A stretch of DNA of 64,000 nucleotides from Ancylonema sp. (taxonomy: Eukaryota): contig JBFLGF010000001.1 of assembly GCA_050230475.1 (NCBI GenBank), positions 124,001-188,000 on the forward strand. Reading direction: 5' to 3'. The translations under genes were made by a program, and so were the position numbers. Of this stretch, positions 5,801-64,000 are shown piece after piece; the first letter of the stretch is position 1; the number at the start of each line of letters is the position of its first letter. A model generated the notes under the pieces. It worked only from the letters and a program-made list of their open reading frames with translations. It was not told the DNA's origin and did not search any database.

Positions 5801-5819
5801 CAGGCCCCACAGTGGGTAG
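2817..5819 (+). CDS. INTS3: Integrator complex subunit 3 (SOSS-A) homolog, apparently intronless; frameshift(s) near the 3' end
   Basis: 1000-aa ORF with INTS3 motifs LLRQIAGGD, VFTYLRLI, RYQTWF, DLLRFVCCVVHPTNQILSSDVVPRWAIVGWLL, AKLAVFYDWLFF and NIMNIEPA. Homology moves to another frame after SLEWDSYE (~5291). Confidence 0.9.
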   Translation: MPIGGPQRPGVGGSVVSSGPPSAQVGPGLLIRGPYDAPDEVERMLTHASGAIAQCLAGGVESEINSFLQEKAASGPLQHAEVINGLIFNILTESVPPAQLISYMQLVTRDKYTGCLLVLQRVVAEKWTKLADGVVGKVLWMLEQLIGLGVPETEGLLFCLLRQIAGGDVTPPNLWLANAMLELLTRHRSWLYTCPGSVGLAVFTYLRLIPDHSGRKVQELRQREAAFCCQTLRERLEDCLAVGRDLVRVLQEATAVPELDRIWKDLHSAPAVFGVPDFSDISQLYCVRTPSRYITSRVTPEMETQIRFLLTHVRMGNQRRYQTWFSHRVLAGPESETLVPDLLRFVCCVVHPTNQILSSDVVPRWAIVGWLLKCCKSQLADASAKLAVFYDWLFFQDTCDNIMNIEPAVLLMVHSIPKYADITNALLHCLFHLLDTYDPPRRELLFRGVTTSLSVLTTKGVVNSLEGLVATPLIRPPLVDKLRSYFPAFCNSPPHSDAWPASGRGAAEGGEGDRGVGRVEERDVEGRSKRKRAAEQREELQGELKVHFEILKASVAGSQEKAAEALEHLIVFVTSSEEGLWGGKVMRTAGHGDVSRQTTTAHISLEEQTALANQIREVVAEGGYHLCSPLRKMPSQELSPDETGSLTSILLRLYVINRHPLLRSMLLTWQGAGCNVSARLLCYVARLGEELEMAESREDGEGEGEGEQSQEEEAVAAAFEAYHQLQGEGREKEGLEADLGTCLVWNTYRFLRLLPLVFRYLPHLAGGSVNIIQMLVGVGDPVELASMETSLAAGDYCMGRWGGGADPDEACCRLVEASLEWDSYEPGAGVAAGEGGICGVDHSIPVFPPGETRGGVQKTGAVAGGPDGKCRLCFGPPPGRGSGGSGVRDAPRLREGTGGHLSRGTSLHPAALCTCLRAEAKRREGGEGERGKQGGGRTGERMDGVGGLDAVVGEVNEAVEAKAEAMRRRRVHAATDVGISAIHEDASVKLLVTLYRPHSG

Positions 5820-32797: not shown

Positions 32798-35700
32798 TGT
32801 GAGAACGCAGAATCAGTGCTTGTATAATGAAAGAGAAAATATTTCTATGCTTTATCTTGATAGGTGTTGTTGTAAAGAAACATTTGAGTGAAGAAATAAG
32901 TTGATTTGGAGTTTTGGTTAGGAAGTTATCGATTTTACAAATATTGCGTTTGAGTGCTAATTAGGGGGGCGGATAATACGAGGTCGAAACTTTGAAGTGA
33001 CCGATACGCGTCGTCTGTGGTCAGAATTGAGTCATTCTTTGTGTGATTTGTTTCATTTAGAGAGATGCACGTGGTGACAGTAGTTGGAATATTTTGGACA
33101 TGTGTAAGTTTTGGCGGTCAACGTGTCGACGTTTGTAGTCACTAGTTGAGACATTGTGACACGTATTGACACGTAGGTGACAAGTGGATAGCATCATAGG
33201 CTTGGGGCTGTCAAGTGCAGCATAGCATCTTTGTGAGAGTCGTTTGTGGTAGTAGACGCATGTACTAAGGGTCTTTGGAACCCATACATTTTTTAAATGA
33301 CTTTGAAAGATTATCTTGTCGAAGTATTCAGGCGTTTTGTTGGATGAGTTTCAGAAGATAAAGTGTGCAGTTCAACATGTCATATGGTATCAGAGCTGAT
33401 GGTGATGCTTCCAGAAAAACGTATTTCAATGGGAAGAATTTCGGTGCGTGGAGCACGAATGTGTTCGCGGCACTAGATGAGGCGGATGCTCTGCGTATTA
33501 CGCAGCGAAAGGAGACTATTCCTGTTGAGGTGCTACCAGCCCTTGATGCTCTTGGAAATGTCAATAACCAGGCGCAAATGGATGAAATCGTGGCTGATCT
33601 CAAAGATTTTGGAAAGCGCTTCAAGAGAGGTGTTTCAATTCTTACTCAATCAATTGACGATTCTTTGGTACAACTTCTGAATTCGGTTCCTAGGCATCCA
33701 GCCGACATCTGGGAGAAGATCGAGCGAGACTTCAATAAGGGGTGTCTCCCGGAACTCAGCAGATGAAGGAAGAGCTACGTGCTTTTCATATCGATCCGAA
33801 CGAAGATGCGGTCCTCGTGCAGCATAGGCTCGAGTTGTTGGTTGATAAGTGTCGGCAGAAGAAGTACTTTCCTACAGATGAGGACGTCGCGATGACTCTG
33901 CTCGACGCACTTGATGAGAGTTATGAGTCACTTCGAAATACATACTGGGTAACGTCTCCTCTTCCGTCGATAGGGGTGGATCTACACTCAGATTGATGAC
34001 AAGAAGCGGCGGGCGAAAAGGTCGGAGGGTGCTGCGCACAGTGCGGCACTTGCGGCTAAGTTTGCGAAAACATCTATCGAAGGTTACTATGGTGGTGGTG
34101 GTGCTGGTGGTGAAAGGAAGTTCGTTCCTCGGAGGTTGCGGTGTTGCCGGAGGCGGCCGTGGCGGTGTTGGAGGTCGTGGTGGCGACGATGGCGGTGATT
34201 CTGAATCGTGCTACAAGTGTGGCGCTAATGATCATTTTGCGAGGGATTGCCCTCACAAGAAAAACACGTGTAGTTACTGTTGTGGCGTGGTGGGCCATTT
34301 GGAGCTGGTATGTTTCGACAAGCGGGACGGGAAGCCGCGAGGTCAGCGTGCGGTCATTGGTGGGCCACCCGGAGGACGTGCACTTGGTGGTGAGGGTCGA
34401 CGTGCGGAAGTCGGCTTCAATGAGCAACTGTTTGGCGAGGTGGACTTCAGTGAATGGATGATGGCTGAAGGGATGAAGAATTCTAGAGAAAAACTGGAAG
34501 TGAAAGGAGAGTGGCTGTGTAACATTGGAGCCAAGCATCATGCATGCAAGGACTTCGATAAGTTCGTGAAGCTAGAAAAGTTTCCGAAGGCGCAGTATGT
34601 GAAACAAATTCAGGGTAGAGTGAAAGTCACTCATTGGGGGGTGGCGCAAGTGTTTTCGGTTGGAGCGAGTGGTGAGGAGCGAAGTGTGATTTTACACGAC
34701 TGTCTTTACACACCGGATCTTTGTGTGAATGTTTTCTCACTACAACGACTACGTAAGAAATCTGGTTCCTATGCTCAATCCGGTAAGCTTGGAGGCAAGG
34801 TGCCGCTTTACAACGCGGGTGGAAATCAATTTGCTACCATGCAAGAGTCGGAGAGTGGACGTCTGACATTAGTAGAAGCCGGATGCTGATGTGGAAAGTG
34901 GTTATTATGAGGAGGCTGTGGTGGTGCGAGAGGAGAAAGAGAAGATTCCGATGGAGAGTGATGTGGCGAAAAGTAGTGACACCGAGAGTGGTGATTACGG
35001 AGAGGCAGAAAGTGACGGAGTGAGTGCCGAGGATGAGATGGACGTTTTGTTTGAACCCGTGGTGTTTCCAAGTGTTGGATCAGGTGCTGAGCTGAGCATG
35101 GGTGAGGCTGAGGGGAAACCATTGCATGATGAAGAAGTGATTCTGGTCACAAAAGAGGAAATGCACGATGGTGTGAATGTCAAAATCGGTGGAGGTGACC
35201 GACTTGCGGTGAACGAGTTCTTTGAGGATCCGATGGGAACGGCAAAGAAACTGATTGGTGACGAGAAAGTGAAGGTTTTTTGGGACGCATTTCCTGAACC
35301 GGTGACGTCTGATGAGAGTGGGAGGGAGCCTAAGGGGCTCGATGAGTCGTCTCATAAGGAGAAAGGTGTCAAGCGCAAGTTCAAAGTTACCGACGGCATT
35401 GCGCGAAAAGTGTGGAGGGGTCGCTTCAGTGCAGGAGGGAGAAATGCAGAAGCAAGAGGGAGTGACATCCCAACTGAGAATATGTGAAAGGCCAGAATGA
35501 GAAGAGCATCATCAATAAAACATTGAGTGAATTGACGCACTTAATTCTGGGAGGGAGAATGTGAGAAAGGAGAATCAGTGCTTGTATAATGAGAGCGAAA
35601 ATACTTCGATGCTTTATCTTGATAGGTTTTGTTGTAAGAAACATTTGAGTGAAGAAATAAGTTGATTTGGAGTTGTGGTTAGGAAGATATCGATACAAAT

Positions 35701-36165
35701 ATAGCGTTTGAGTGCTAATTAGGCGGATAAACGAGGTCGAAACTTTGAAGTGACCGATACGCGTCGTCTGTGGTCAGAATTGAGTCATTGTGTTTCATTT
35801 AGAGAGATGCACGTGGTGACAGTAGTTGGCATATTTTGGACTGGACATGTGTAAGTTTTGGCTGGTCAACGTGTCGACGTTTGTAGTCACTAGTTGAGAC
35901 ATTATGACACGTATTGACACGTAGGTGACAAGTGGATAGCATCACAGGCTTGGGGCTGTCAAGTGCAGCATAGCATCTTTGTGAGAGTCGTTTGTGGTAG
36001 TAGACGCATGTACTAAGGGTCTTTGGAACCCATACATTTTTTAAATGACTTTGAAAGATTATCTTGTCGAAGTATTCTGGCGTTTTGTTGGATGAGTTTC
36101 AGAAGCACATATATGAGTACTTGACTTTTAATTAAGAAGAGTGGTGCAGAATTCAACATGTCATA
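32798..36165 (+). mobile_element. Non-autonomous Ty1/Copia LTR retrotransposon (gag-protease only)
   Basis: LTRs 32798-33384 and 35560-36165; 5-bp TSD aggac; PBS tggtatcagagc at 33385; PPT gggagggagaa before 35560. Frameshifted gag with CYKCGANDHFARDC; protease WLCNIGAKHH lacks the catalytic Asp; no integrase/RT motifs seen. Confidence 0.93.
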
Positions 36166-37285
36166 AGGACGAGGTTGTTGAAGGTCCTGTGTTTTATCCT
36201 ACGCTTTCAGAATTTCTTCATCCGGATCCGCAAGTATACTTGCAATCTACGTACCGCGACTGTCTGGAGTTCCGAAAAGCCGGTACGGATTCGTTTCTTT
36301 AATTGCGTTACCCAACAATGTGAGCTTGTTTTCATTTCGCAATTGTTTATATACTGTGCAGGTAGATGTAAGATTGCCAGCCCTATCAAACTGAATACCA
36401 TAGAGTCGGCACGTATGGTTCTGGCGAAAAAAGACTTCAGATTCGACACCAAGATGCTTCCATTGCAAAGCAAGATCCTCTACAAGAAAAGTGGTGCCTG
36501 CATGGGATGGCAACACGAAAACCCCGAAAAAAGAATCCGAAGTAAATTCACAAGCAACTGTTGCTTTCTTCTTATTTGACATTTCGCTGACAATAGTTCT
36601 TTTCGTTGACCATGTTCAGCAATTTTTCGCTGGAGGTTTTTGAGGCAAGCTCTTTGGAGGTGCGTCAAAACGTGTTTGGTTTGGCCGCTGATATGTCGGA
36701 CGCCAAAATTGAAGAGTCATTCTGTAAGGAGCTCACTTCTAGAGCATCAAATGTGGTGGAGTACGCCAACGACGTGACGTATTCTGCATTTTCTTCTCTT
36801 CCAAGAGATCCTCTAGGATCCTCGGGGTGGAATTTGACAGTAAATTATGCATTGTAGTTTATAGCAATAAATAAAAACAAAAGGTGATTTTTTGTGAAGT
36901 TGTCATATATACTCAATGTTCTTGGATTTTTATTTTCTTTTGGAAAGATGTATGAAATTATTTATATTGAATCCTCTCTTGAATCCCCTGTTGAATCCTC
37001 TCTTGAATCTTTTTGATATATATTACATGAAATTAGAATTCACAAGTAATATTATGTGTTTATGAACGAAACATGCATGACGATTTTCCAAAGGTGTTTT
37101 TAATTAATAATTGAGCGGGAATACAATAACGTAAAAAATATTTTTCTCCATAAATATATGATGTATGAAGAAATATAAATACAGAAATACGAAAATGTTT
37201 TCATGAAGTGGGTATGAGTGAAGCATTTCATTTTATATATATTTTTGCACACCCGAAAATTATACAGTTGGATTTCATGATAATA

Positions 37286-37810
<525 letters not shown>

Positions 37811-40569
37811 CTAAATAATTAGATTAAAATGAAAAATACTAGTTTGATTTTTTTTTATAGCTTATGAAACAAAAAAATTAAAAATGTAATTATATGATTT
37901 TTTAAAAAATGATTTAACCTATATTTTCTACATCTTATTGCAAAGGATTGCTGGACTTTCAGGGACGCTTACAAGACATGAGAAAGCGGATATTTCAAGA
38001 GTTACCCAACCTATGATATACGTGGGGATGCTTCATAGCTATTTTCCATGGCATGTGGAAGACAACAATTGCTTCTCCATCAATTATTCCCATGAAGGAG
38101 ATGCCAAAACATGGGGGGTACTTGGGGAAACGGAAGCTACTACTTTTGAAGTGTTAATACACTCGATCCTTATTGGGAAAACAGTTAAGTAGTCTTTGGC
38201 GGATTCTATCCTCCGAATTGTGGACAAGTCGGTGATTATTCCCGTTTCTTATTTGGTTAAAGCCGGTCTGCGCGTTCATCGTTTGGTACAACGACCCGGG
38301 GAGTTCATTGTTACAACCCCCCGTGGCTATCATGCTGGTTTTAGCCACGGCTTCAATATAGGGGAAGCAGTGAATTTCGCTCCTTCTACTTGGCTTCCAC
38401 TTGCAGTGCGTCGCTATTCTTTTCTTGGTCTTTGGTCTGTTGTGCATTATGATGCGTATGTTCTTGCAGAGGTGGAAGATATGATTCTTCGCACAAGTCA
38501 TGTGGGGAAGAGTTTGCAAAAAGCTGCTTGGATTAAGCTTGTTGATGAAATGGAAACGAAGGTTGAGGAGATTTTATCACCTTCTATTGTAACTGTTGAG
38601 CGAGTAGTTCAACATGTGTGTAGTGATAAATTGATTGGGAAATGTAGAAGATGTAAAGAGACATGTTGTTTAGTGGGAGTCTAGTGTGCGTGTGACATCA
38701 AAAGTCTTCTATGTGTACGAGAAGATAGATCGACTTGCAAGTGTGTTTCTGTGACTATTTGCTATTCCGAGGAGTGGGAGATGTACAAGCCTCTCGCGAG
38801 TGTTTGGAAAGGAGGGATAGACAAGGAGAGTGTGAGAGAGATACTCCAGGAGGTTGATTTAGAAGATCCGTTATTAGTTAGTCAACCGCAAATTATTGGT
38901 AGGAAAAGGGGCAGGAAACGTAGTGCAAAATAGTAATATCAGGTGGAAAGCATTTTGACATGGTGATGATTGTTGTTTTTTTTACGTTTTTGTGTTTTGT
39001 TGTAGATAGAATAAATGAATGTATTCACTTGGTAGTTAAGTATTTGATATACAACTCCAATTTTTTAGCAAACAAGGTCAAGAAAAGTAGTGCGAAATAG
39101 AAATAGTGCGAATGTGAAAAGCATGAAATGTTGTGGTGTTTCCTTTGTATCAAATTAGTTTTTTGTTTACTTTGTGTGGACACTAATTGACACTTGTGCA
39201 CATTTGGACAGCCTCAGAATTAATGCATTAACCTAATTATTTTATTTTGTAATTTGTGGAACTGATTTTGATGTATACATCCGATGGTGTATTACTGCCA
39301 AAAATCAGAGTGAGATAATGCTATTCAAATTCTAATTAATTAATTGTTGATGGGGGTGTGTGGAAGTAAATACTTTGGTGTATAATTATTTTTGTATGTT
39401 TTTCTTTTTATTTCTAAGTGGAATTGAGAAAGCAAAGTTTCGTTATTACATCAACAATTTATTAAAATTATTGTGATGTTATAATTTTTCATTGTTTGTA
39501 ACACAAATCGGTAACATCCCTTAAAATTGTATTAACATCATGCGAGCTTTGAAAATAACCCACAAAATGGTATCTCTTTTAATGATAAAGTGTTGTCTTA
39601 TACAGATCACTATGCAATTGTATGTCATCACTTCATGGATGTTAGCTTCATAAGGAAGCTGTAAAGGCACATGTAACTTGTACACTCTACATATGAAGAA
39701 AGTAAAACTAATGTTCATCAACTTAATCAACTATTTTATAGCTATCCATTTAAATCTCAAGTATTTGTATTTTTTAGTTCTATAATTATTACATCCGAAC
39801 ATGCAATGCTTTGATGAATGTTCATGTGAACGACCACAATTTTTTATGTGCATTTATAAGGCATAAAATAATGCCCCAAAAAAAAAAAAAAAAAAAAAAT
39901 CCAAAATGTGGCTTCAATATGAATCACGCATTTCTCATGAGGAAGACGTTGCACACAAACAAATCGAGTTGCACTTTAAACGGATTCAAGTTCATTTTCT
40001 TGAGAATTTGAAAAGTTTATTTTTGTATTGTAGGATGGAAATATGTATGAGGAGAATACCAAAACCTGTGAAGGACAAAAACAATAAAATGTAAGTAAAT
40101 AATTAAGTCCCCATTTACTTGCCTATTACCATTTTTCTTTTAAAAAAAATGTTACTTGTTATTCTTTTGCTATTTTGAATAAGCTATGTGTATTCAGTTT
40201 TTGGGTGTCTACATTGTATTGATGTTTTTTTTTTTTTTTTTGGGATGTTACTAGTTTTGGTAGGTTTGAACTTGAAGGAAATATATTTTGGTTTATTTGT
40301 GGGTTGGATTTTTTACGAAAGGAGAGTAAAAGAATACCTTAACATGTTGGTGCCAAAATCGATGTAATATTAATCTTTGGAATGGATTATAGTTACATCC
40401 ATACGGCAAAAAAAAAAACATACGCCGTATGCCATACTTTTGCCAGCCATGTTTTTTAGGTAATTCGTATACATTTTAGGGGTTGTAATTTGGACCCAAA
40501 ATAATGTACCGAAACCCAAAACCCCAAAAAACTTACCAAAGAAGATGTGAAGCATCCAATTGTGTTGTG

Positions 40570-41945
40570 TAACGTACACGGATGATGTCACTCATCCTCC
40601 TCATTCTCCTCCTCATGCAACCATTCCTCATCTTCCTCTATCTCTTCGTCTATGTCTAATGCCTATCTTTTTTTTTGCAGGCTTTTTGAAGCTGATTTTT
40701 CACTACTAGCCACAAACGTTTCTAAGTTCTTACAGAGAAGAGTATACCAATCCCGCTCTTTTACAAATGTTTTATGTTCCTTGCACCAATTATCTATCAT
40801 AACTACCATTTCTTTTTTTAATCCCCTCACTCCACTAATTAGCTGCATAACTTTCTAACACATGCAATCATCTGTAACTTTTTTGAGTCTACTCTTCAGT
40901 ATCGCTAAAGCTCGTTCCTCCTCGATGTCCGTTGTTTCTCTTTGTGATGTTTGAGTAGGAACGCCTTCAGTGTCCTTCTCGACTTCGGGGTCTTCATCCT
41001 CATTATCCTTTCCCACCGCATACTTGTTTAAACTATCCACTATTTCTAACAATGTCTTTTCTACTTGTATACGCTTATTTCTTTCTGTTTCAAGTTGTGC
41101 CTACATATTTTCCCTATCCTCCATGATCTGTTTCTCAAAAGCAACAAATCTTTGCTCTATGGCAACATATTTTTGTTTCTGCACAACATGTTGCTCTTTT
41201 AAGGCAACAAAATCATGCTTCGAGACGAGATGATTCTCTTCTATAGCAAATGGCCTGATGTCCACTACTTGTATCTGTTCCTGTAATGAAGTATTGCTTT
41301 CCACTGTAGGTACAATTGCTAATGTAGTTGGATTTGTAGTATAATTGTCTTCATATATATATCGCACACCACGTGGTGGTTTGTACCTAGGTAAATTGGG
41401 TCCGCTCCTAGCATTTGATGCTGTTTTGTTGAATCCCTCAGACCTCATATTTAACACCTCCAGCGAAGAATAGATATGTGTAGGAAAATAATCGGACACA
41501 CTTGCAAGATCGTAATTTTGTTGCCCTTTGTCATTAACAGCAGGAAGTGACAATGGATGGCAGATGATGTGAAAGCGATTTATCTCGAGGAAATTCTCAT
41601 CGCCATACATCTGGAAAAAAAAATGTAGTACAAACATCAGATTAGAGCATGCTTTTATTCAAATTCGTGAAGAAGGAGAGAAAACGATATGAGATGAAGC
41701 TCACTTTCTTTAGTTTCAGAGCCGCATTATTTGCTCCATCGACCACGATCGCTCGCAATAACTTGTGGTTGTGTGTGTTGCCCGAGAGACACAATAGTGC
41801 CAACAGGCACAACGCCATTCGGCATAGAACCTAGTGAGAGCATAGCGCGAAGGACCTTTTTGAGTGTCTCTTTATCATGATGCACCCGAGGACCAGCATC
41901 AGCGCTTGGTGCCTCGGCAACACTCGATTGCCTCACAGTATCCAT
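40570..41945 (-). pseudogene. Decayed two-exon transposon accessory gene with coiled-coil/acidic C-terminus (possibly En/Spm TNP1-like)
   Basis: MDTVRQ..VGTIVSLGQHTQPQVIA, a frameshift, then an intron (~41611-41704), then MYGDENFLEIN.. and heptad-like LKEQHVVQKQKYVAIEQRFVAFEKQI with stops. Family assignment is weak. Confidence 0.45.
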
Positions 41946-42030
41946 TTGATCAGAGAAACAAGGAGAGGATATCGCAAGTGTTGCGAGTATATGAAAATTG
42001 TTGGAGCACAGTATTCCGCTTATAGCAGCC

Positions 42031-42570
42031 TTTGCAGCGAGTTTGCAGCGAGTTTGCAGCGAGTTTGCAGTTTGCAGTTTGCAGCCTGCAGCTTGCAGCG
42101 AGTTTGCAGCGAGTTTGCAGTTTGCAGTTTGCAGCCTGCAGCTTGCAGCGAGTTTGCAGCGAGTTTGCAGTTCGCAGTTTGCAGCCTGCAGCTTGCAGCG
42201 AGTTTGCAGCGAGTTTGCAGCGAGTTTGCAGGTTGCAGTTTGCAGCCTGCAGCTTGCAGCGAGTTTGCAGCGAGTTTGCAGTTTGCAGTGTGCAGCCTGC
42301 AGCTTGCAGCGAGTTTGTAGCGAGTATGCAGCGAGTTTGCAGCGAGTTTGCAGCGAGTTTGCAGTGCACCGTATTTTCTCCGATTGCAGCGAGAACAGCG
42401 TATTTCCGCCGGTTGCAGCGTATTTGCGCCGATCGAGCGAGTGCACCTTATTTCCGCCGATTGCAGCGAGTGCAGCGAATTTCCGCCGATTGCCGCGATT
42501 GCACCTAATTTTCGCCTATTGCAGTGAGTGCAGCGACTGTACCTACCGTTTTCCATATTTTGCAGCGGGT
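42031..42570. repeat. Subterminal tandem array of gcagcgagttt/gcagttt units with ~49-bp higher-order period, degenerating rightward
   Basis: Visible in sequence; it explains the repetitive LQTRCKLAA ORFs. Confidence 0.92.
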
Positions 42571-42831
42571 AGAGCGATAGCCCCGTATTTCCGTTGCACA
42601 ACGTTTCTCGTTGGTGTACTGCATTGGTTTTTTGGTTGGTAGGGACATGGCTTCGACGAAAAAAAGGCCGGCAAACATGCAAAAAACGGTCGATAAATCA
42701 AACCAGCAAGGGGATAGCTTTGCCATTAAAAATTGGTTTTTTGGGGGTTTTTTTTTGGGGTTTTTTTTTTTTTTTTTATTTTTTATGATTACAAGTCAGG
42801 CATAACAGAAAGGTCAGGCATAACAACAGTG
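42031..42831. mobile_element. Right terminus of a CACTG-ended (CACTA/CMC-like) DNA transposon; left terminus not found
   Basis: Minus strand begins CACTGTTGTTATGCCTGAC at 42831, with gtcaggcataaca twice. Homology of the adjacent MITE stops exactly at 42832. Confidence 0.55.
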
Positions 42832-54513: not shown

Positions 54514-54924
54514 GCGTATGGAGGAGCACCCCTAGGAATTACCGCGACTAGGAGGAACGTTGTCGCACGCCAATATTGGTAGGCACGAGAGGAGCCATTC
54601 ACGGACTTACATACTACTCATGTGCTCCCATTGCGCAATGTGGGAAGTCATCTCATTAACTTTGGGACATCAACTACATGGGCGCACGAGATTGTGTGGA
54701 CAACTGATTTTCTGAAACACTAACCCGATTAAGCGTCCAATCATTCTTTGGACGTCAATATGACCATCTAAATTTGGACACTATCTTACGACTCATTTGC
54801 ACGGATATGCGAGTTATACCGGACCACTACATGGTCCGGTGTAGAGAAATGACGTCCGCCGTATGGCGTAGATCACACTGTACAAAGTGAGGACAACAAA
54901 ACGAGCAAATCATCCCCAATTTTT

Positions 54925-57900
54925 TCAGAGCACCAACTCGGAAATCGAAAGCTCCGCATGCCACATTCCCCTCACAAACTCCTCTACATGCTTCGCTCCA
55001 CCATTCGACAACGCGCGTAGATCTTCCGCATGAACCTCCACCTCTTGGTGTTGGCCGTGGGTTTGGAACTCCTTGATGCCCTTGTCCCATCCGGCCCACC
55101 ACGTCACATCCAACATCTCCACACGGATAGGAAAGCCCGCAAGTTGCCCCACGAATGCGGTCGTGATCACTTTGCGTATGTGTGCGACTTCCGTCTTGAA
55201 GTCATCCCCTACTTGCACCACCTCTATCCCTTGCTCCTCCACCTTCCTCACCAACAACGGGAGCAGTTTCAAGCGTTTCATGAGCTTGCTGCTGGGCTCA
55301 AGAGCCCGTTTCGAATGAATGTACATCCGCGCCGTGAGGGGGCGATCCCTTGCCTCCTCCTCCAGTGCGTCCTCGTCCCCAAACCCCGCGTTTGCGAGGG
55401 ATGAGGAGAAGGTGAGGGAGGCGGCCAGCCAACGCAGCGGGCGCTGAGTGGCCTTGGCGTCGAGGACGCCTAGTGCGTCATCCAGACAGATACGAGCTTC
55501 GGTCCCCAACCCACTAATGGTGACGCGCCACATGGGGTCGCTAGATGATTGACGCTGAAAGTTATGGGCGGAAAGGAATCGTACGAGGGGGTCCAGGGGT
55601 TGGAGCACCTGAGGGGACCACAGTCCACAATCCACAGTCCGCACTGAAATGAGCACAGCGTACCAACAGAGTCATAAGAATTGAAAGTTGGGAGTGTGGT
55701 GAGGTCTTACTTGGGTGTATAGGGCTTGAGATAAGCCCTTCTCTTTCAATGGCTTTGTTTTTTGGACACCTTCGCCATCTGTCTTCACTGGGGTCTGGGT
55801 GTCCAGGTCATGAGTTTTGGCCTTCTTTACCTTCTGCCTGCTGTCCACCTCCGCCCCCCCCTCCACCCGCGCGGAGAGCCCAGAGCTCGCCTGCCTCTGC
55901 CACAGCTTCGCCTGCCTGCGCCCCTTGGCAAGCGCATCCTCAAACTCCTCGATCTCAAGGGACCCCAACGAGTTTTCTGACACAGACCGCCCGAGGTGCA
56001 TCAGGTACTGGGTACCAAAACGAATGACCGCCCCCACCCCCCCCGGCCCCTCTGGGCACCGCTGCAGCGCCTCCACCTGTCTCAACACTGCGGAATGGAG
56101 CCTGCGGAAGGCATGTGCCTGCCAGGTGTCGCCAGCGCATGGCGCCACCAGTGCTGTTGTGTGTAGTTCCAGCCCCCGGTGATGGAGGTGGTGCACCTTC
56201 TCGTAAGGGCGGAACCCCAACTCGTCCCTCTTAGAGTTGGCACCCTGGAATAGTTGGCACACAGACCCCTCCACAAACATGCTGCCCGACGCGCGGTTCA
56301 AGATCACCGACCCATCCACCATGCCTGACAGGTAACGCTCGATCCTGCGCACTGCGGACCACTCCCCTGTGATGTCCGCCCACAGGGGGGGGCGACGGGT
56401 TCCTACTCTCCCGCTGCTGGCAGGGGTGATGACCACGCTCGCCTTCCCCCTGCCCATGAGATGAAGCTTCTGAGCGTAATACGCTTTTCTTCCTTTGTAT
56501 TTGGCACACATCCCTCGGTGTAGTCGTACACGCACGTGTCGGGTGACAGCGGTGAGTAGGCCGTCCACACAGGCAGTGGAGGTGAGGAGGTGAAGGGCGC
56601 CGAGACAGTAGTCACGAAACTCGCGGAAGGAGTGGGAGGAGATGGCCACACACGTGCGGTCACTCTTGAGGGGATCGATGATGCTCAAGGGGGACCCCTC
56701 CCTGCTTCCAGGAAGCTTCTGCCCTTCCCCAGCCCCCAGGTATGTGAGGACTTGAATAAGTGCCTCCCCCACCAAGGTCCCGTCTGCCATTCGTCGCGCT
56801 TCCTCTGGATCCTCTCTCATGCCGTCCAACAAGTCGAACCAAAAGGAGCGAAGGCTCATCATGTCCGCCTCCTCTACTCCCAACGATGCTGAGGTGGCAC
56901 CTCCTAGGTACCCCCTCTCCAGACAGAATGCCACGATCATCCATGTGAGGCCGTCTGCAGTCATGATTCCTAGCGGCTTGTGAGCCACCAATCCGGTACG
57001 CTTTCCCCAGCGAAGCAGTATGCGGAGGAGGAGCAGTAGGGCGGGGCAGGATTGAATGTGGGAGCGCAGCATGAGGCTCTTGAGTAGGCCAGGGGGGTGT
57101 GCCGTCACGTCCAGCGGCACAGCCATGGAACCGCTGTCGCAGATGAGGAGGGGCACCTCAGGATGCGCCAACAACCTCACCTGAAGGGGCCGAGGGGGAC
57201 GGTTATTCATTCTAAGAAACGCAGAGGGTCACCTCCCCAGCTGCACGGACTCACCTCTGGGAAGGAGGGCTGCATTGCCACCTGGAGCTCCTGCAAGAGC
57301 GCCACCTGGCTCGTTTTGGGCAGAGGGTCGGGCCAAGCAGCCCCCGCAGGGAGGGGTGCGGGGAGGAGACATACGTCCACGTCGGACATGTTGGGGTCGA
57401 ACAGGTACGTGGAGGAGGATCCGAACATGCACAGCTGGCGGCCGGGGAGTGGCAGCAGATCCAACACCTCCTCCAACTGCTCGCACAGATTGGCTCGGTC
57501 CACAAAAGATGACCATAGGGACGCCCGGGTGCCGTCAAAGTCCAGCTTCAGGCTGTCACTCACGCGCTCTGGGAGGGACGCGGGAAGGGATCTCTGGGGG
57601 GTCCTGTTGGTCGCAGTAATCACAAGGAGGTCGAGTATGGCCCAAAGGAAGGAGAGGGAGCGGTCTGTGGGGTCAGGGTCCGAATACGCCACCCAGTAGC
57701 AGGCTGCCGCCAGGTCATACTGCTTTCCTGATGAGAGGAGGGAGCACTGGAGATCAAAGGAGCTTCTGGTTTGGGTGACCATGGTCTGGAACAGTTCCTG
57801 GATGGTGGTAACCACGTCCCCCCTGTCCAGGTGGGGATGGACCTTCCGCACGCACCCCGTCACCACTTCCCCCTCACTCTCAATCCCGAACTGATTGCAG

Positions 57901-60900
57901 AGGCCACGGACGGCGGAGCGAAACGACTTGTACAGCCCCTCTGCAATGGGTAGGAAGTCTTCATACCCGGTCGTGAGCAGGGATGGGTCAGGTTGAGTCT
58001 GCTTCGTTCCCATCCCTACCTCCTCACCACTGTGGTCCACACTCATGGCGCGACGGCACATGGTACCGAGGACAGTGGGGGACTCGTAGACCTCCCTGTC
58101 CGTCTTCCCCATGAAATCGGGAAACTGTTTGGGTTGGAGGTCCGCGGGTATCCCCCCCGTCCACCCCGTCTTTCCTGCGTCTACTGCCGTGTGGTGCAGG
58201 TCTGCCAGGCGGAGGCAATCAGGGTGGGCGGCTCCCCCTATGTCCACGTGTGTGTCCGCCCATGCCAGGTGTGCGTTGGCGATCTGCCCCAGCTCCGCAC
58301 TGCCCATCAGTGCCACATAGCTCTCCGCCAGGTGGCGCACGCTCATCATCTCACCCTCCCCGATCTCCACAGCCGCCCCAGGAGTGAAGTCCATGGACGG
58401 GAATTCTGTGGACGGCAGGAGAGACTCGTCCCATATGACGGCGTACTTGTCCCCGTCTAGGTCCCCCCCTGACATCTTATCCGCCTCCGGCCTCTCCCCT
58501 TTCACAGAGAATACCACCACATCGATGGAGTCCCGACCCAGCCGCTCCCTCACTGCACTACTCCCGTTGGCTTTCAATTGGCTCACGTCCCCTGGATGTA
58601 GGCACGGGGTCCTGTACACGGTACACAGGCCGTCCAGGACCCACGGCCACTTCTCCCCAGGGGTCCTCCGGTCCGCCCCTGGTTCCCAGGGGGGTGCCAG
58701 TGGGGCAGACAGTTGCACGAAAACCTCCCCCTCCTCCAGGACCCCACTCGGGTCTGCCACCCCCATCAGCAGCCGCCCCTCCTCCACCCACAGCCGACTC
58801 TTCTCTGTCAGATCACGTACACGCCATTCATAAACGGCGCGCACCATACTGCGCAGCAGCGCATCTTCCCTCACGGACTGCCCCGTGGCCCGCCATGATG
58901 TCAGCAGACTCCCACTGTCCCTAACGCTATTTTGCAGAGCCGCCCATGCTACCTCGTCGTCCTGGAATAGAGTGAGCAGACTGCACAGCTGGCGCTCCTG
59001 CAGGGGGGCACAGAGACGGAGAGGTTGGCGAGAGCGATCCGAGATCGGCTTATGATTGGTACGCAAGTACGAAGGTCACAAACCGCAGAATGAGTTGTCA
59101 CAATCAGAGAATGGCGGTGCTTGCTTTCAGTGTCCTTTCAACAAACACAATTGTGGGCCCATATATTGAGGTAATGAGGTCAAGTACATGATCGAACCGT
59201 ATGCCGTAAACAGTGACTTCACATGCAGTTGCCATTCTGGGCGCCACCTACACTAGAAGGCGTACTGAATCAGTGCGACGCTTGGAAATAACAAAATGGC
59301 CAACTGTGGTATGAGTGTGGTGTGTCCCAACGTGCAGCTTGCCTGCATTGCCTCGAAGAGATGAGGAGGCACCCCCCTCGCCAGCATCAGGGTGATTGCC
59401 TGCCTATTCAGGTACAAGGGCTGGTTGCTAGACTGCCCCTGGACTGAGAGGTGAGAGCGGGAGGACTCAAACTTCTTCATGCTAGGACGAAGATGGAGGT
59501 GACAAGACGGCCAGGAAGAGCCCGGGGAGGGGGGGGGCGCTGTGAGGGCGGACTCTACCGCCACCACCCCCTTCACACCTCCGATGCGGACCTGGAGTAC
59601 GGAGGGGGGAGGGTGGTTGGGGAGGCCCAGCTGGCGCACCACGGCATCCCGGGCGGCGGATGAGATTTTCCCGCACCCGTCTGTGAAGACATGCTTGTTC
59701 TTCCCTCGCCCCACCACATCCTGGAGCAGGTTGGCGTTATGGAGGCACGCAGGGTGGAAGGGGAGGGAGGGTCTGGAGGCAGCCAGGTCTTGACCCAGGC
59801 GGGCAAGGTACTTGGAAGGGCAGCGGATGCTAGACAGGTCCCCAATCCAATCCCACACCTTCTCCACGCTGAGGGACGTCATCCAGCAGCCATGGCTGTG
59901 GATCTGACTGGGGGTGGCCGCCAAGAGCCTGAAGGTCTCCCCCCCCACTTCCAGCCCTTGCACCAGCACCTCCCGCACCCGATCCAGCAGAAGGGACTCC
60001 TGCCCGTGGATAAAACCACCGTTCTCGTCGCGGAAGTTCACTATGAGGAACCGGTCGGGATCCTGGAAGTGGCGGAGGATTGCGTTGGATGCGACTGGAG
60101 CCGGTGGCGAGTGGAGTGTCCGTAAGGGACTTATGGTGGCTCGACGGATGGCAATGTGGTTGGCAGGGAGGGGGAGCAGGGAGGGGCCCCATGAGGGAAC
60201 CGGGTGGGTGGAGGCTGCCTTCAAGACGTCCACCGGATTGCAAAAGCGGCGTAGGAGAGAAGGCATTTGCATGAGAGCCCACTCCGCCCGCTCCCACCCG
60301 CCTTCGGGGCTCCACAGAGCAGCCAGGTGGACAAAGAATCGATCGGGGAGGGTGCCCGCAGGGAGCAGATGAGCATGTTCGGTTCGCAGGCAGTCCAGCA
60401 AGCAGCGCACACGGAAGGGAAATAGGAGGCTAGCGTTGGGTCCACACTCGCTCGCTGCCACCGAATCTCTGTCCCTTTTCCTGCTCACCTCCTGCTCCTC
60501 TGCATCTGCCTCCAGATCCCCCTCCCCCCCCCCCCCCTCCCCCATCTCTTCCCCCTGCGCCAGCGAGTCCTCTATCCACCCCCGCACCACCTCCACCCCC
60601 CCCGCCCTCAGCGCTCCCACCAACGGCCCAGGAACCGCCACCTCCAGTCTGTACACAAACGCCTCCCCCACAGCCTTGGCCACTCCTGCCCCATCCAAGG
60701 CCAACCGCATCCACCTCGTATCCTCCTCCCCAACCACTGCGCGGTAAAGACGAGGGCAGCAAAGAAGAGGCAGGTAGAGCCTGGTCTTCTGCCCCTCTAC
60801 CGCATGCAGCACGGCTGGCCCATGAACAGCGGCGTGGGGGAGCTCCACGCGCAGCTGCAGGTGATGTAGTTCGATGTAGAGAAGACCCTTTTGTACCACC

Positions 60901-63900
60901 CACCGGACCTCCGCCACCTCCCCAGGTCCGTCCAGATCCTCCACCCCGACAAAGACCCCAGGCGTCATCATGTGGCCTACTGTACACCTGGTGAGCGGCG
61001 CCCTGGTGGCGCCACCTGGCATGTCCGCAGCAGATACGCCCTCCCCGTCGCGTTGAAGCCATAGGCGGGTGCCCCGGAGGTCTAGGTGGGCGTTCTGGCA
61101 AAGATCTTGGTAGGCCTGATGCGCTGGTAGGCCAGGTGGCATCAGGATGTGGAGGAGAGCCTGGCCTGTAGGCTTGGCCACCTTCAGATCGCACAACTCC
61201 ACCTCACCCACGCCGGAAAAAAGAGCCGCCACTTCACCTGGACGGAAAGACGGAAAAGAGGGGTTGGATTGGGGGGTAGTCTAGCAAGAGAAGTTATGTC
61301 TAGAGGCGAATCACCTGTGGAGCAAGAAGAAAAAGAACTTGGAACCATCTTTGGTGAGATAACAACATAAGAAGTTGCATATCTGCGTCATTGCATAATG
61401 CACCTATGTTTGCTACGGGAGCAAAGGTTGGAGTGAAACTTTTCTAGAAAATTGGGGATGGGAAAATCAGTCTGCCATGGCTATATCTAACAAACTGGAA
61501 AGCCAAGTCAAGATAGAGTAATGAGCTCTAAATGTAGAGCATTCTGTCTTTCTTCGTCCGGAGAAATATCATTACGAAGCGACTTGATGTTTGTGCTTTC
61601 AATGTTACAGAAGCACGCAGTGCGATCAATGGTTGTATTGATCCAGTTACATTGTTTCAGATTAACTTGCCGAGGGCGCATCTTGGCAGTTGATAGTTGA
61701 GCACAACAGTGTCATGGATGAGATAGAGCAAGCAGGATGACGATGTGAAATAGTGCAAATATTGTTATTGTGATGATAGAAAAGGGCAGGCTAAATGATT
61801 GAGTGAGAAGCAGAATGGAGAAATTGCTTTGGTGAAGTGTACTTTGGTGAACGTGATTTAAAATTATTATATCTGTCATCCTCTGCCTCCTCACCCTGGG
61901 CAGCAGAGCGTGGGACATTGTGCAAAGTAATCACCAGACTCTCCCCACCGCCCGGATCCTGCTTGTCAAGAACGACCACACCTTCTCCCACTTCTACTTG
62001 TGCTTCTACTTCCCCTGTCGCCCCCCCTCTCTCTCCACTCTGCCACTCCATGCGTGCCTTATCAAGTTGGGAGCAGAGGTGGTGAGTTTGGGGGGATGCC
62101 ACCTGCTGCATCCCCCGTATGGCCCTCATCATGCAACGCTCCTCTTCACAACGAGACTCCCACACCCCCTTCTCCTCCACGTTGGCCAGCACCACAAAGC
62201 GACTGTCCCTCTTCCTTGCCCTCCCCCTGCTCTGGATGAGTGCCGTCATGGAGACAGCTCCGTCGAATCGTATCACAAGGTTGCATGCGGGCACATCCAG
62301 GCCTTCTTCTGCGACACTGGTGGCCACCAGAATGCGATACACCCCGGAACGGAACCGATCCAGCACGGGCTTCTGCTCCTCTTGCCAGCTCATCCCGTCA
62401 AACCCAGAGTGACCGACCAACGTGGCTACCTTGAGCTTCTTCAGGGCTTCTACCTGCCCCAACATCTTGGCCACAAGCTTGGTTGTGCTTTTCTTCTGCA
62501 CGAATATGAGCACACGGGAGTTGGAATTGTGGCGGAGAGATTTCGTGACCTCATCTATCACAGCAGTCATCCTGCTAGACCACTCCTCCCTGTCTCCCTC
62601 CCCCACTCCATGACCTGTCCACGAAAGCGGCCATCTCAAGTCCCGGATGATCTCCAGCTTTGCCGCTTGCTCCTTGGAGCACCCCACCCTCTTCCAGTAT
62701 CTGCACAGTTCCCTCCGTGAAGCCGAGGGGCTGTACACGTGGCACGTCCACAGCATGCTCATCATTTCCAGGGCGTGCTGCACCACGGCACGCAGGGGAC
62801 CCGCCTTGCGGGCAGAGGCGAAGTCCTGAAGCTTCCGCAGTTCCCCCCTCAGGTTTCCCTCCACCAACTCTGCTGAGAAATTGGAGTCTAACTGGAAGTA
62901 GTCACTGGCCACAGCCATCCTCTGCACCTTGGCCAGCAGAGTGTTCAAGTACCCCACCAACTCCCGTTTGAATGCCTCCTCGTCTGCAGAGGGCACCACC
63001 GGCACACACTCTGTGTCGGCTCTGGCAGTGAGATCTTCCAACTGCTGCCAGTAGAGATTCGGTACCCGGAATTCGGCGCCGCAGAAGGCCTGGGACAGGG
63101 AACGCAGCTGGATACCTGTTTGCGCCATGGAAATCTTGCCACCTGGGGACGCTGTGAGACCTGGCACATCACAGGGCAGGTCGCATACTGCAATGAGATC
63201 TAGAGAGGACAGTCTTCTGGCATTCACAGTTGCACAGGACGTGTTTGCAGATTACGAGGTATCAATCAGTTTGGGACGACCATAAAATTCAGGGCATCTA
63301 AATCGATGAAGGGACCAACGAGAGGGATGTGCAGAACCTCATACAACATTCTCGGAGGTGGAGGCAACACCACGCTTTTCAAAATCATGTATCTGGTGTT
63401 GCATACCTTTTTTACCATAATTGTATGGTCAAAATTGCACGCACTACCAGATACATAATTTTGAAGACTGAAAGTCTACAAACATCTACACACATGATTG
63501 AAGTATGAGTACAATTACACGAATTGACACCCACACCCTCACAACTCACCTAGAAGACGGGGCCTGTCCTCCAGGAGGCAAGGACGGAAATGTTCATTCA
63601 GGATACGAGCAAAAGGGTGGGTCTTGGAAGCGTGGTGGGCTTCATCGAATACCAACAGGCTGCACCAAGAGAGAGGGAAGCCCGCTGCCAGCTTGTTCAG
63701 AAAGACCTGCGCTGTCATGGCCAGCACGTCGTAATCATCTTTGAGGGACATTATGTCGGCAGCAGTGGAGAGGTTGAGCGAGGAGGAATTCTCTCCGGTG
63801 TATTCCTGCAAAAAAACGAAGAGCGGCAGTGGAGAGGCTGAGCGAGAAGGGATTTTCGTCAATGTATTTCTGGAGGCAACCGAAGAGCAGCAGGTATGTG

Positions 63901-64000
63901 GTTTACACAAGCTGTGATCCCGCCCATGTGCTGCTTTACACACCTGAACCCGCAGACCGGCATCCACCCTAAGTACTTGTGCTTGCTGATGCACAAGCGG
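54925..64000 (-). CDS. Multidomain RNA-dependent RNA polymerase: Dicer/RIG-I-like helicase + RRM + RdRP + Cid1/TUTase-like nucleotidyltransferase + KH-like + C-terminal domain; 5' end beyond the window
   Basis: Exons >64000-63944, 63805-63550, 63160-61895, 61237-59343, 58997-57255, 57180-55711 and 55608-54925 total 7371 nt and join in frame. Helicase motifs PLVHQQ, VFDEAHHA, LLGLTASP, VLIFV, ILVATSVAEEGLDVPACNLV, QSRGRAR. RdRP motifs TDGCGKIS, QVRIGGVKG, LRPSMKKF, LNRQ, RTPCLHPGD, SGGDLDGDKY, AVDAGKTG, FPDFM. NTase motifs FGSS..SDVDV, VPLL..LDVT, LSIIDP. Confidence 0.9.

What the first reader, a model, noticed from the sequence alone, without database searches (positions are those of the whole stretch)
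56640..58470. RdRP catalytic core and nucleotidyltransferase motif share one exon, with the catalytic triad intact
Seen: SGGDLDGDKY and LCMFGSSSTYLFDPNMSDVDV lie in the same uninterrupted ORF (57207-59066), so this part of the fusion does not depend on my splice model. The third Asp (PLDVT), the central-domain pattern (GLLKSLML..P..LLRWGKRTGL..GLTWMIVAF) and a nucleotide-recognition loop LSIIDPLKSDRT follow. By-eye alignment puts Arg where S. pombe Cid1 has its UTP-selecting His. Inference: the enzyme is probably active, but the tail type (U, A, or mixed such as pUG) cannot be read from sequence.
Basis: partly seen in the sequence, partly recalled or inferred. Interest (0 to 1): 0.8.

Follow-up and report, generated by a model that had tools for sequence, protein, structure and literature searches.

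The report
One-chain helicase–RdRP–tailing enzyme–triphosphate tunnel
A single eukaryotic gene joins a Dicer/RIG-I-type helicase, an RNA-dependent RNA polymerase, a Cid1/GLD-2-type nucleotidyltransferase with its catalytic residues intact and a triphosphate-tunnel domain, so it is likely a one-chain RNA-silencing amplifier, a family present in databases but hardly described.

Summary
On the minus strand, the RdRP catalytic loop (58472-58443) and the nucleotidyltransferase (NTase) G-S/DxD block (57434-57372) lie in one open frame (57207-59075). The third Asp, the central domain and the recognition loop follow after a canonical 74-nt intron. A six-exon model gives 2,502 codons with a single, terminal stop; the 5' end runs off the window.

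The gene is not unique. It belongs to a rare family (44 hits among 1.84 billion representatives) found in streptophytes, oomycetes, chytrids, Amoebozoa and dinoflagellates. The NTase is a Cid1/GLD-2/TUT4-type enzyme by sequence profile. The fold evidence comes from a liverwort homologue, because the window's own spliced domain could not be folded.

Activity is plausible but unproven. The acidic triad is nearly invariant across the family, yet the window has Asp where canonical enzymes have a base-stacking aromatic residue. Tail type cannot be read from sequence.

A further result is that the C-terminus is a Cet1-like triphosphate tunnel, closest to trypanosome RESC1/RESC2 (Z 22). This suggests the enzyme handles both the 3' end and the 5'-triphosphate end of RdRP duplexes.

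In print I found only one passing mention of an RdRP-NTase fusion.

The parts
63550..64000 (-). Exon a (partial; the gene's 5' end lies beyond the window): helicase domain 1 with the DEAH box (FDEAHH at 63649-63632)
   Evidence: Open frame running off the window. tblastn of P0047 and P0045. Model.
61895..63160 (-). Exon b: helicase motif III (GLTASP, spanning the exon a/b junction) and helicase C-terminal domain; Dicer/RIG-I-like class
   Evidence: Pfam Helicase_C 8.6e-20. Best PDB matches are DCL1 1.2e-20, then LGP2, MDA5 and RIG-I. The acceptor at 63161 was chosen by homology.
59343..61237 (-). Exon c: linker and N-terminal half of the RdRP domain
   Evidence: Pfam RdRP 9.6e-60, profile positions 2-269. 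The intron b/c (61894-61238, GTGAGG...CCAG) is the least certain boundary.
57255..58997 (-). Exon d: C-terminal half of the RdRP with the DLDGD loop (58472-58443), then the first part of the NTase palm: G-S at 57422-57417, DxD Asp codons at 57383-57381 and 57377-57375
   Evidence: Pfam RdRP 7.3e-71. PF22600 reaches only 18.2 bits, below its cut-off of 27. Upstream intron 59342-58998 is a probable GC-AG intron inferred from homology.
57181..57254 (-). 74-nt intron inside the NTase catalytic domain (GTGAGT...CTTCAG); removing it restores the frame
   Evidence: Sequence read. The join is stop-free and collinear with homologues.
56575..57180 (-). Exon e, first part: third catalytic Asp (57111-57109), central (PAP-associated-like) domain, and recognition loop (56688-56653, Arg at 56658-56656)
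   Evidence: phmmer to TbTUT4 2ikf at 5e-6. NTase HMM built without window rows covers spliced residues 1681-1987 at 1.3e-53.
55711..56574 (-). Exon e, second part: a small unassigned linker domain, then the N-terminal half of the triphosphate-tunnel domain (from about 56295; IRFGTQY at 56025-56005)
   Evidence: TTM HMM built without window rows covers spliced residues 2081-2499 at 4.1e-59. Alignment A4.
55609..55710 (-). 102-nt in-phase intron (GTAAGA...CCCCTCAG) that contains the in-frame TGA at 55672-55674
   Evidence: Sequence read. Homologues align on both sides.
54925..55608 (-). Exon f: C-terminal half of the triphosphate-tunnel domain (RPLRWLAAS at 55443-55417; E-x-E within HQEVEVH at 55050-55030) and stop codon at 54925-54927
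   Evidence: phmmer to P0045 2e-24, P0047 1e-19 and Mesostigma P0061 1.2e-12. P0047 aligns to its own last residues here.

Best explanation
This is one multi-exon gene that encodes a Dicer/RIG-I-like helicase, a cellular RNA-dependent RNA polymerase, a Cid1/GLD-2/TUT4-type terminal nucleotidyltransferase and a Cet1/RESC-like triphosphate-tunnel domain in a single chain; it likely works as a covalently fused version of the RdRP complexes (RDRC) that amplify RNA silencing.

**Shown**
- The domains, their order and the open reading frame.
- Canonical splice sites at four of five introns.
- The NTase catalytic residues are present.
- The same architecture recurs in several eukaryotic supergroups.

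**Inferred**
- The RdRP copies a target RNA into dsRNA.
- The NTase adds untemplated nucleotides to a 3' end, either of the template or of the product, as separate NTase subunits do in fission yeast and ciliate RdRP complexes.
- The tunnel domain binds, or possibly hydrolyses, the 5'-triphosphate that a de novo RdRP product carries.
- A product's 5'-triphosphate pairs opposite the template's 3' end. The two adjacent C-terminal domains would therefore act on the same duplex terminus.

Which nucleotide is added is unknown.
For: **One gene**
- The six-exon model gives 2,502 codons with a single, terminal stop.
- The RdRP loop and the NTase G-S/DxD share one frame.
- P0047 (Riccia, 2,642 aa) aligns collinearly from 64000 to 54928, ending at its own C-terminus.

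**Family**
- The NTase/C-terminal exon found 44 proteins at E<=1e-3 among 1.84 billion representatives.
- All 16 of the 16 long hits scanned carry RdRP. Of these, 13 have PF22600 after it and 2 more have NTP_transf_2 only.
- Named members come from Mesotaenium, Marchantia, Riccia, Mesostigma, Pythium/Phytophthora, chytrids, Pelomyxa, Mastigamoeba, Cavostelium (a transcript assembly) and dinoflagellates.

**NTase identity**
- The NTase-only profile (A3) matches TbTUT4 at 1.5e-22 and rat GLD2 at 2.7e-22 over GLD2 residues 51-371. It also matches CutA, URT1, Cid1, Trf4 and mtPAP.
- The homologue model has pLDDT 84.6.
- Its best Foldseek matches are TUT4 (3.1e-10), CutA, GLD-2, mtPAP and Cid1.
- The triad columns are nearly invariant.

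**Tunnel domain**
- The model has pLDDT 86.4 and pTM 0.86.
- VIA-align gives RESC1 Z 22.3 (rmsd 3.1 over 269 residues), RESC2 21.8, Cet1 17.2 and Pct1 15.1.
- Foldseek gives RESC2 at 1e-12. The sequence profile matches RESC1 at 4.8e-4.
- RESC2 binds the 5'-triphosphate of guide RNA (PMC10201420, passages).

**Precedent**
RdRP-NTase complexes are described in S. pombe, Tetrahymena and Paramecium (PMC4066745, passages).
Against: - There is no expression or activity data; no RNA run was listed.
- The window's own spliced NTase could not be folded. The fold evidence comes from a homologue sharing about a third of its residues with the window (31% over the NTase/C-terminal exon; 31-37% in alignment A1).
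- The window has Asp at the position aligned with the base-stacking Tyr of TUT4/GLD-2.
- Thr follows the loop Arg where a paper calls Asn strictly conserved.
- PF22600 is below Pfam's cut-off on the window's exon d.
- Animal relatives keep only the central part of the NTase (P0006, P0008, P0012, P0014). The domain can therefore decay.
- In the tunnel domain, one conserved Glu (24/33) is Gln in the window.
- Two intron boundaries (61894-61238 and the GC-AG 59342-58998) rest on homology and site strength alone.
Confidence: 0.6

Rival explanations
1. The NTase module is kept as a scaffold or a 3'-end-binding module and has little or no catalytic activity (a pseudo-enzyme, like the inactive NTase copies in some tailing enzymes).
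For: - Asp replaces the stacking aromatic residue in the window, and only 12 of 35 family rows are aromatic there.
- The Asn after the loop Arg is missing.
- Pfam PF22600 is sub-threshold on the window's exon.
- Animal relatives retain only HMM positions of about 109-260 and have lost the palm.
Against: G-S, DxD and the third acidic residue are nearly invariant across distant lineages. That is hard to explain without selection for catalysis. The Lys/Arg after the conserved Trp is kept in 31 of 36 rows, and the window has Lys.
Confidence: 0.17
2. The locus is a pseudogene or an unexpressed relic, or the fusion is an assembly artefact.
For: No RNA evidence could be obtained. The 5' end is outside the window. 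Two intron boundaries are inferred.
Against: The model has 7.5 kb of coding sequence without a frameshift and with a single, terminal stop. Four of five introns are GT-AG and one is a consensus-like GC-AG. Catalytic motifs of all four domains are present. The same domain order is seen in many independent genomes and in one transcriptome.
Confidence: 0.07
3. The Pol-beta domain makes a signalling nucleotide (OAS/cGAS-like) in response to dsRNA, instead of tailing RNA.
For: The helicase is of the RIG-I/MDA5/Dicer class. OAS shares the PAP/OAS1 substrate-binding architecture (abstract of PMC5689010 in the listing).
Against: Of the 36 PDB sequences matched by the NTase-only profile at E<=0.01, all are RNA tailing enzymes, poly(A) polymerases or editing TUTases, and none is OAS or cGAS. 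The top fold matches are the same classes.
Confidence: 0.04
4. RdRP and NTase are separate neighbouring genes that only look fused.
For: Database models of relatives are sometimes split; Marchantia paleacea has models of 1,386, 2,213 and 776 aa in one cluster.
Against: There is no stop between the DLDGD loop and the G-S/DxD block, which lie 346 codons apart in one frame. Homologues are collinear across the junction.
Confidence: 0.03

Closest known systems
RdRP complexes with a separate NTase subunit: S. pombe RDRC (Rdp1-Hrr1-Cid12), Tetrahymena Rdr1 with Rdn1 or Rdn2
   Same: They combine an RdRP, a helicase (in yeast) and a Cid1-family NTase in one machine for siRNA production (PMC4066745, passages).
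   Different: Here the activities are covalently joined in one chain. The helicase is Dicer/RIG-I-like, which from recall is not the class of Hrr1. A triphosphate-tunnel domain is added. Orthology of the NTase to Cid12 or Rdn1/2 was not tested.
Helicase-RdRP fusions of Dictyostelium, Phytophthora, Hydra and Nematostella
   Same: They share the N-terminal DEAD/Helicase_C plus RdRP layout. Oomycete proteins are the window's best full-length hits (31-32% identity). This layout is described in PMC4791657 (passages).
   Different: That paper does not contain the word nucleotidyltransferase (count 0 in the listing). In my analysis the oomycete proteins carry both the NTase and the tunnel domain.
Cid1/GLD-2/TUT4-type terminal nucleotidyltransferases (TENTs)
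   Same: They share hG[GS], DxD and the third Asp, plus the central domain with a W-x-[KR] motif. The family profile matches at 1e-22 to 1e-15, and the homologue model matches them with Foldseek probability 1.00.
   Different: No subfamily is clearly closest. Lys sits at the position aligned with an Asn of TbTUT4 (window alignment; Lys in 31/34 family rows). The stacking aromatic residue is poorly conserved. The recognition loop is divergent, and local alignments to Cid1 and TUT7 stop before it.
Trypanosome RESC1/RESC2 (guide-RNA binding) and Cet1/Pct1 RNA triphosphatases
   Same: They share the triphosphate-tunnel fold: Z 22 to RESC1/2 and 15-17 to Cet1/Pct1. Conserved Arg residues and a C-terminal E-x-E are present.
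   Different: The domain is fused to an RdRP instead of standing alone. RESC1/2 were reported to have no homologues outside kinetoplastids (PMC10201420). Whether the domain binds or hydrolyses triphosphate is unknown.

Membership tests
Eukaryotic cellular RdRP (Pfam PF05183; QDE-1/RDR type) | Match to the family profile above the curated cut-off | tested here: met
   240 bits and 203 bits on the two exons against a cut-off of 23.8; together they cover profile positions 2-581.
Eukaryotic cellular RdRP (Pfam PF05183; QDE-1/RDR type) | DxDGD catalytic loop | tested here: met
   DLDGD lies within 58472-58443. It aligns with the DLDGD of Arabidopsis RDR2 in the family profile.
Cid1/GLD-2/Trf4-type terminal nucleotidyltransferase | hG[GS] motif, DxD and a third carboxylate on the Pol-beta palm | tested here: met
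   The window has FGSS, SDVDV and PLDVT. The third Asp pairs with the Asp of the DFDIT strand of TbTUT4.
Cid1/GLD-2/Trf4-type terminal nucleotidyltransferase | Central (PAP-associated) domain completing the active site | tested here: met
   The window exon matches TbTUT4 at 5e-6 over the central helix. The family profile covers GLD2 residues 51-371. PF22600 alone is below its cut-off on the window, because the domain is split by an intron.
Cid1/GLD-2/Trf4-type terminal nucleotidyltransferase | Base-stacking aromatic residue and the conserved Asn of the recognition loop | tested here: not met
   By alignment, Asp stands at the aromatic position. The loop reads R-T where Asn is expected. The alignment may be off by a residue or two.
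Cid1/GLD-2/Trf4-type terminal nucleotidyltransferase | Pol-beta fold of the window's own domain | not testable with these tools
   The domain spans an intron, and a joined sequence could not be handed to the folding tool. A homologue sharing about a third of its residues (31-37% in alignment) was folded instead.
Cid1/GLD-2/Trf4-type terminal nucleotidyltransferase | Untemplated 3' nucleotide addition | not testable with these tools
   Needs an enzyme assay.
Triphosphate tunnel (Cet1-like RNA triphosphatase / RESC1-RESC2) | Tunnel-shaped antiparallel beta-barrel fold | tested here: met
   Model of family member P0053: Z 22.3, 21.8, 17.2 and 15.1 to RESC1, RESC2, Cet1 and Pct1. The window's two exon pieces align to P0053 at 40% and 26% identity and score 4.1e-59 against an HMM built without them.
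Triphosphate tunnel (Cet1-like RNA triphosphatase / RESC1-RESC2) | Metal-binding glutamates on both the first and the last tunnel strand, needed for hydrolysis (a recalled feature of Cet1) | tested here: inconclusive
   The C-terminal E-x-E is conserved (26/27 and 20/27) and present in the window. No conserved Glu pair was seen before the RFG strand. One further Glu (24/33) is Gln in the window. No residue-level structural alignment was available.
S. pombe-type RDRC | RdRP, helicase and NTase physically linked | tested here: met
   They are linked by being one reading frame. Orthology of each part to Rdp1, Hrr1 and Cid12 was not tested.

The most novel reading that the evidence does not exclude
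The last common ancestor of eukaryotes had a four-activity silencing amplifier: helicase, RdRP, 3'-tailing enzyme and 5'-triphosphate tunnel. It held both ends of the duplex terminus it created. The kinetoplastid guide-RNA machinery (TUTases plus RESC1/RESC2) is a descendant of its NTase-tunnel module. This would give RESC1/2 their first relatives outside kinetoplastids.
Probability: 0.25. Interest if true: 0.85.

Novelty: new variant of a known kind. Interest (0 to 1): 0.62.

Why it matters
RdRP complexes with a helicase and a tailing enzyme are central to RNA silencing in fission yeast, ciliates and nematodes. How the parts cooperate on one RNA is still unclear.

- **A natural fusion.** It argues that the partnership is ancient and obligatory. 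It also offers a single polypeptide for biochemistry and cryo-EM.
- **Tractable hosts.** Liverwort orthologues sit in a genetically tractable plant lineage that was not known for this RdRP type.
- **The tunnel domain.** It adds a new element: handling of the 5'-triphosphate that marks RdRP products.
- **An evolutionary link.** It connects an orphan pair of trypanosome RNA-editing proteins to the RNAi world.

If the NTase proves inactive, the family would still show how such modules decay, as they seem to have done in animals.

Tried and rejected
- **Own genome.** None is held for this window.
- **Earlier findings.** Nothing by place or by words.
- **RNA evidence.** No RNA holder was listed for 54900-59100, so splice junctions and expression could not be checked with reads.
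- **Word-index search.** With the NTase exon among proteins of 880-2,510 aa it found nothing. The exhaustive HMMER search then found the family.
- **Pfam.** It recognises nothing in the NTase central/C-terminal exon or in the tunnel domain of the window, P0053, P0061 and P0059 at E<=1, apart from weak and evidently unrelated hits.
- **Placing the loop Arg against Cid1.** The first profile search printed only RdRP alignments. In the NTase-only profile, the local alignments to Cid1 and TUT7 end before the recognition loop, and only GLD2 and GLD-2 span it. The His336 question therefore stays open.
- **Splice-site scan.** A strict donor pattern gave a join that contradicted homology. A relaxed scan plus homology pointed to a GC-AG intron.
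- **ESM Atlas.** With P0053 it gave only leads: giant-virus clusters, some carrying mRNA_triPase. Recognition was low.
  - I found no description of an RdRP-NTase fusion other than one figure legend (10.1101/2023.10.19.562841).
  - No paper combined 'triphosphate tunnel' with the RdRP terms.
  - Subscription journals and bioRxiv supplements were not searchable, so an earlier description, for example in comparative-genomics reviews, may exist.

Full report
**What is there**

The region lies in a G+C-rich (about 61%) stretch of a eukaryotic window. All long frames that carry homology are on the minus strand.
- The frame 57207-59075 holds the C-terminal half of a cellular RdRP (Pfam PF05183, 7.3e-71), including the DLDGD loop.
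- 346 codons further on, with no stop between, it holds the G-S and DxD motifs of a Pol-beta nucleotidyltransferase (NTase).
They lie in the next frame, 55672-57228.
- The two frames are joined by a 74-nt intron with textbook sites, GTGAGT to CTTCAG.

The finding's coordinates, 56640-58470, run from the RdRP loop to the recognition loop.

**The gene**

tblastn with liverwort and Mesotaenium relatives shows collinear homology from the window's end (64000) down to 54928. There the Riccia protein reaches its own last residues.

A six-exon model was built from homology and splice sites.
- Exons: 64000-63550, 63160-61895, 61237-59343, 58997-57255, 57180-55711 and 55608-54925.
- It gives 2,502 codons with one stop, at the end.
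- Four introns are GT-AG.
- The intron 59342-58998 is best explained as GC-AG, because only that join keeps residues that align with the relatives.
- The intron 61894-61238 lies in an unconserved linker and is the least certain.
- The apparent stop at 55672-55674 lies inside a 102-nt in-phase intron.
- The N-terminal ~210 residues of the protein, with helicase motif I, must lie beyond the window.

**The four modules**

*Helicase.* The DEAH box, GLTASP and Helicase_C (8.6e-20) are present. The best solved relatives are Arabidopsis DCL1, LGP2, MDA5 and RIG-I. It is therefore a Dicer/RIG-I-like helicase.

*RdRP.* The two Pfam matches together cover the whole model.

*NTase: sequence evidence.*
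- The window exon with the third Asp matches only T. brucei TUT4 among solved chains (5e-6). The Asp pairs with the Asp of TUT4's catalytic strand.
- A 537-residue part of the Riccia protein matches C. elegans GLD-2 (2.3e-9) and TUT4.
- A profile restricted to this region matches TUT4 (1.5e-22) and rat GLD2 (2.7e-22, over nearly the whole enzyme). It also matches CutA, URT1, Cid1, Trf4, mtPAP, Tailor, MEAT1 and RET1.

*NTase: fold evidence.*
- An AlphaFold model of the Riccia part (pLDDT 84.6, pTM 0.72) finds the same enzymes by Foldseek. 158 matches have E<=0.001, with TUT4, CutA, GLD-2, mtPAP and Cid1 on top.

*Triphosphate tunnel.*
- The family profile gave a weak sequence match of its last ~150 positions to RESC1 (4.8e-4).
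- I then folded P0053, a 381-residue fragment covering this region, with an alignment that included the window's two exon pieces (pLDDT 86.4, pTM 0.86).
- Foldseek puts RESC2 and RESC1 first (1e-12 to 8e-8), then Pct1, Cet1 and archaeal tunnel enzymes.
- VIA-align gives Z 22.3 and 21.8 to RESC1 and RESC2, 17.2 to Cet1, 15.1 to Pct1, 12.2 to T. cruzi Cet1 and 10.8 to the mimivirus triphosphatase.
- Pfam sees nothing here.
- An HMM built without the window's rows scores the spliced product at 4.1e-59 over residues 2081-2499.
- Conserved family positions include several Arg, an invariant His and Gln, and a C-terminal E-x-E. The window keeps all of them except one Glu, which is Gln.

A short domain between the NTase and the tunnel remains unassigned.

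**How common the architecture is**
- The exhaustive search with the NTase/C-terminal exon found only 44 proteins at E<=1e-3 among 1.84 billion representatives, most of them 2,000-3,400 aa long.
- All 16 long ones that I scanned carry RdRP, and most carry the helicase. 13 have PF22600 and 2 more have NTP_transf_2.
- Home-made HMMs find both the NTase and the tunnel in each of those 16.
- Named sources are streptophytes (Mesotaenium, Mesostigma, Marchantia, Riccia), oomycetes, chytrids, Amoebozoa and dinoflagellates.
- Among the 44 RdRPs found with the RdRP/NTase exon, 12 have an NTase match and 9 a tunnel match.
- The Nematostella and Branchiostoma proteins match only the central part of the NTase. 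These rows were not used to build the HMMs. This suggests decay of an ancestral extension.
- The window's closest relatives are only 31-38% identical. They point to a streptophyte, probably an alga or bryophyte. I did not pursue the source further.

**Is the NTase active, and what does it add?**

*In favour of activity.* The columns for G, S, the two Asp of DxD and the third carboxylate are nearly invariant: 33/33, 31/33, 31/32, 30/31, and 30/34 plus 3 Glu. So are the Trp and the basic residue of the central helix. The window has the consensus at each.

*Against a fully canonical site.*
- The residue aligned with the base-stacking Tyr of TUT4 and GLD-2 (role recalled) is Asp in the window. It is aromatic in only 12 of 35 rows.
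- A Lys stands at the position aligned with an Asn of TUT4 (window alignment); 31 of 34 family rows have Lys there.

*The recognition loop.*
- It reads DPL-KSD-R-T. Counted from the DP[LF] anchor, the Arg is at +4.
- The family profile aligns that position with the conserved Asn of GLD2.
- Chung et al. report that Cid1 His336 is an insertion just before this Asn. They also report that Cid11 and Cid13 carry Arg and Cid16 Lys at the His position, which they take to favour adenylation (PMC4931116, passages).
Oomycetes have N at +4, and Riccia has T-Y.
The position is not conserved. At most there is a weak hint towards A-addition.

**Mechanism**

*Shown.* Four modules lie in one frame and are conserved as a unit.

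*Established elsewhere.* RdRPs of fission yeast and ciliates work in complexes with Cid1-family NTases, and the Tetrahymena subunit tails templates (PMC4066745, passages and its reference list). RESC2 holds the 5'-triphosphate of guide RNA in its tunnel (PMC10201420, passages).

*Inferred.*
- The helicase engages or remodels RNA.
- The RdRP makes the complementary strand.
- The NTase extends a 3' end.
- The tunnel binds or trims the 5'-triphosphate of the new strand.
- After de novo initiation at a template's 3' end, these two ends lie at the same duplex terminus. That would explain why the two domains are neighbours.

**Comparison with what is in print**
- Helicase-RdRP fusions are described for Dictyostelium, oomycetes, Hydra and Nematostella (PMC4791657, passages). 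That paper does not mention an NTase.
- The only mention I found of an NTase on an RdRP is a figure legend stating that two amoebozoan RdRPs contain a PAP_NTPase domain (10.1101/2023.10.19.562841).
- I found nothing on a tunnel domain in RdRPs.
- The RESC1-RESC2 paper states that these proteins have no homologues outside kinetoplastids.
- My searches cover only open-access full text, so earlier notes may exist.

**Verdict**

The gene is a new member of an under-described family that is best seen as a fused variant of the RdRP complex with an extra 5'-end module. No earlier findings of this scan bore on it.

Noticed in passing
window 54925-56295 (-): The C-terminal ~420 residues of the same protein form a Cet1-like triphosphate tunnel closest to trypanosome RESC1/RESC2. 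Pfam has no model for this domain, and I found no paper that mentions it in RdRPs.
   Followed up: yes
window 59342-58998 (-): This is a probable GC-AG intron (GCAAGC...CTGCAG) inside the RdRP domain. The GT-AG alternatives delete or add residues that disagree with relatives.
   Followed up: partly
P0006, P0008, P0012, P0014 (Nematostella, Branchiostoma RdRPs): Animal RdRPs match only the central part of the NTase HMM (positions about 109-260). Nematostella also matches pieces of the tunnel HMM. They look like remnants of the same C-terminal extension without the catalytic palm.
   Followed up: partly
P0018, P0023, P0047 N-termini (homologues; the matching part of the window's gene lies beyond 64000): Relatives start with a Cys-rich stretch (CxxC pairs) before the helicase, possibly a zinc-binding RNA-end module. 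It was not examined.
   Followed up: no
window 2760-5819 (+): A long open frame of 1,019 codons in G+C-rich DNA. From recall it resembles an Integrator subunit 3-like protein. No search was run.
   Followed up: no
window 17961-23417 (-): An A+T-rich block (about 37-39% G+C) with several long frames rich in Lys/Asn/Glu. By eye it looks like a Helitron/PIF1-helicase-type transposon. Its composition differs sharply from the flanking genes.
   Followed up: no
window 33927-35487 (+): An open frame with a CCHC zinc knuckle (gag-like), suggesting a retrotransposon fragment.
   Followed up: no
window 37100-37823: A microsatellite of about 700 bp that reads as YIYI in several frames on both strands, in the lowest-G+C part of the window (26% over 36001-38000).
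   Followed up: no
window 41727-42697: A tandem-repeat-like stretch that gives repetitive frames (e.g. CKLQTR/CKLAA units) on both strands.
   Followed up: no
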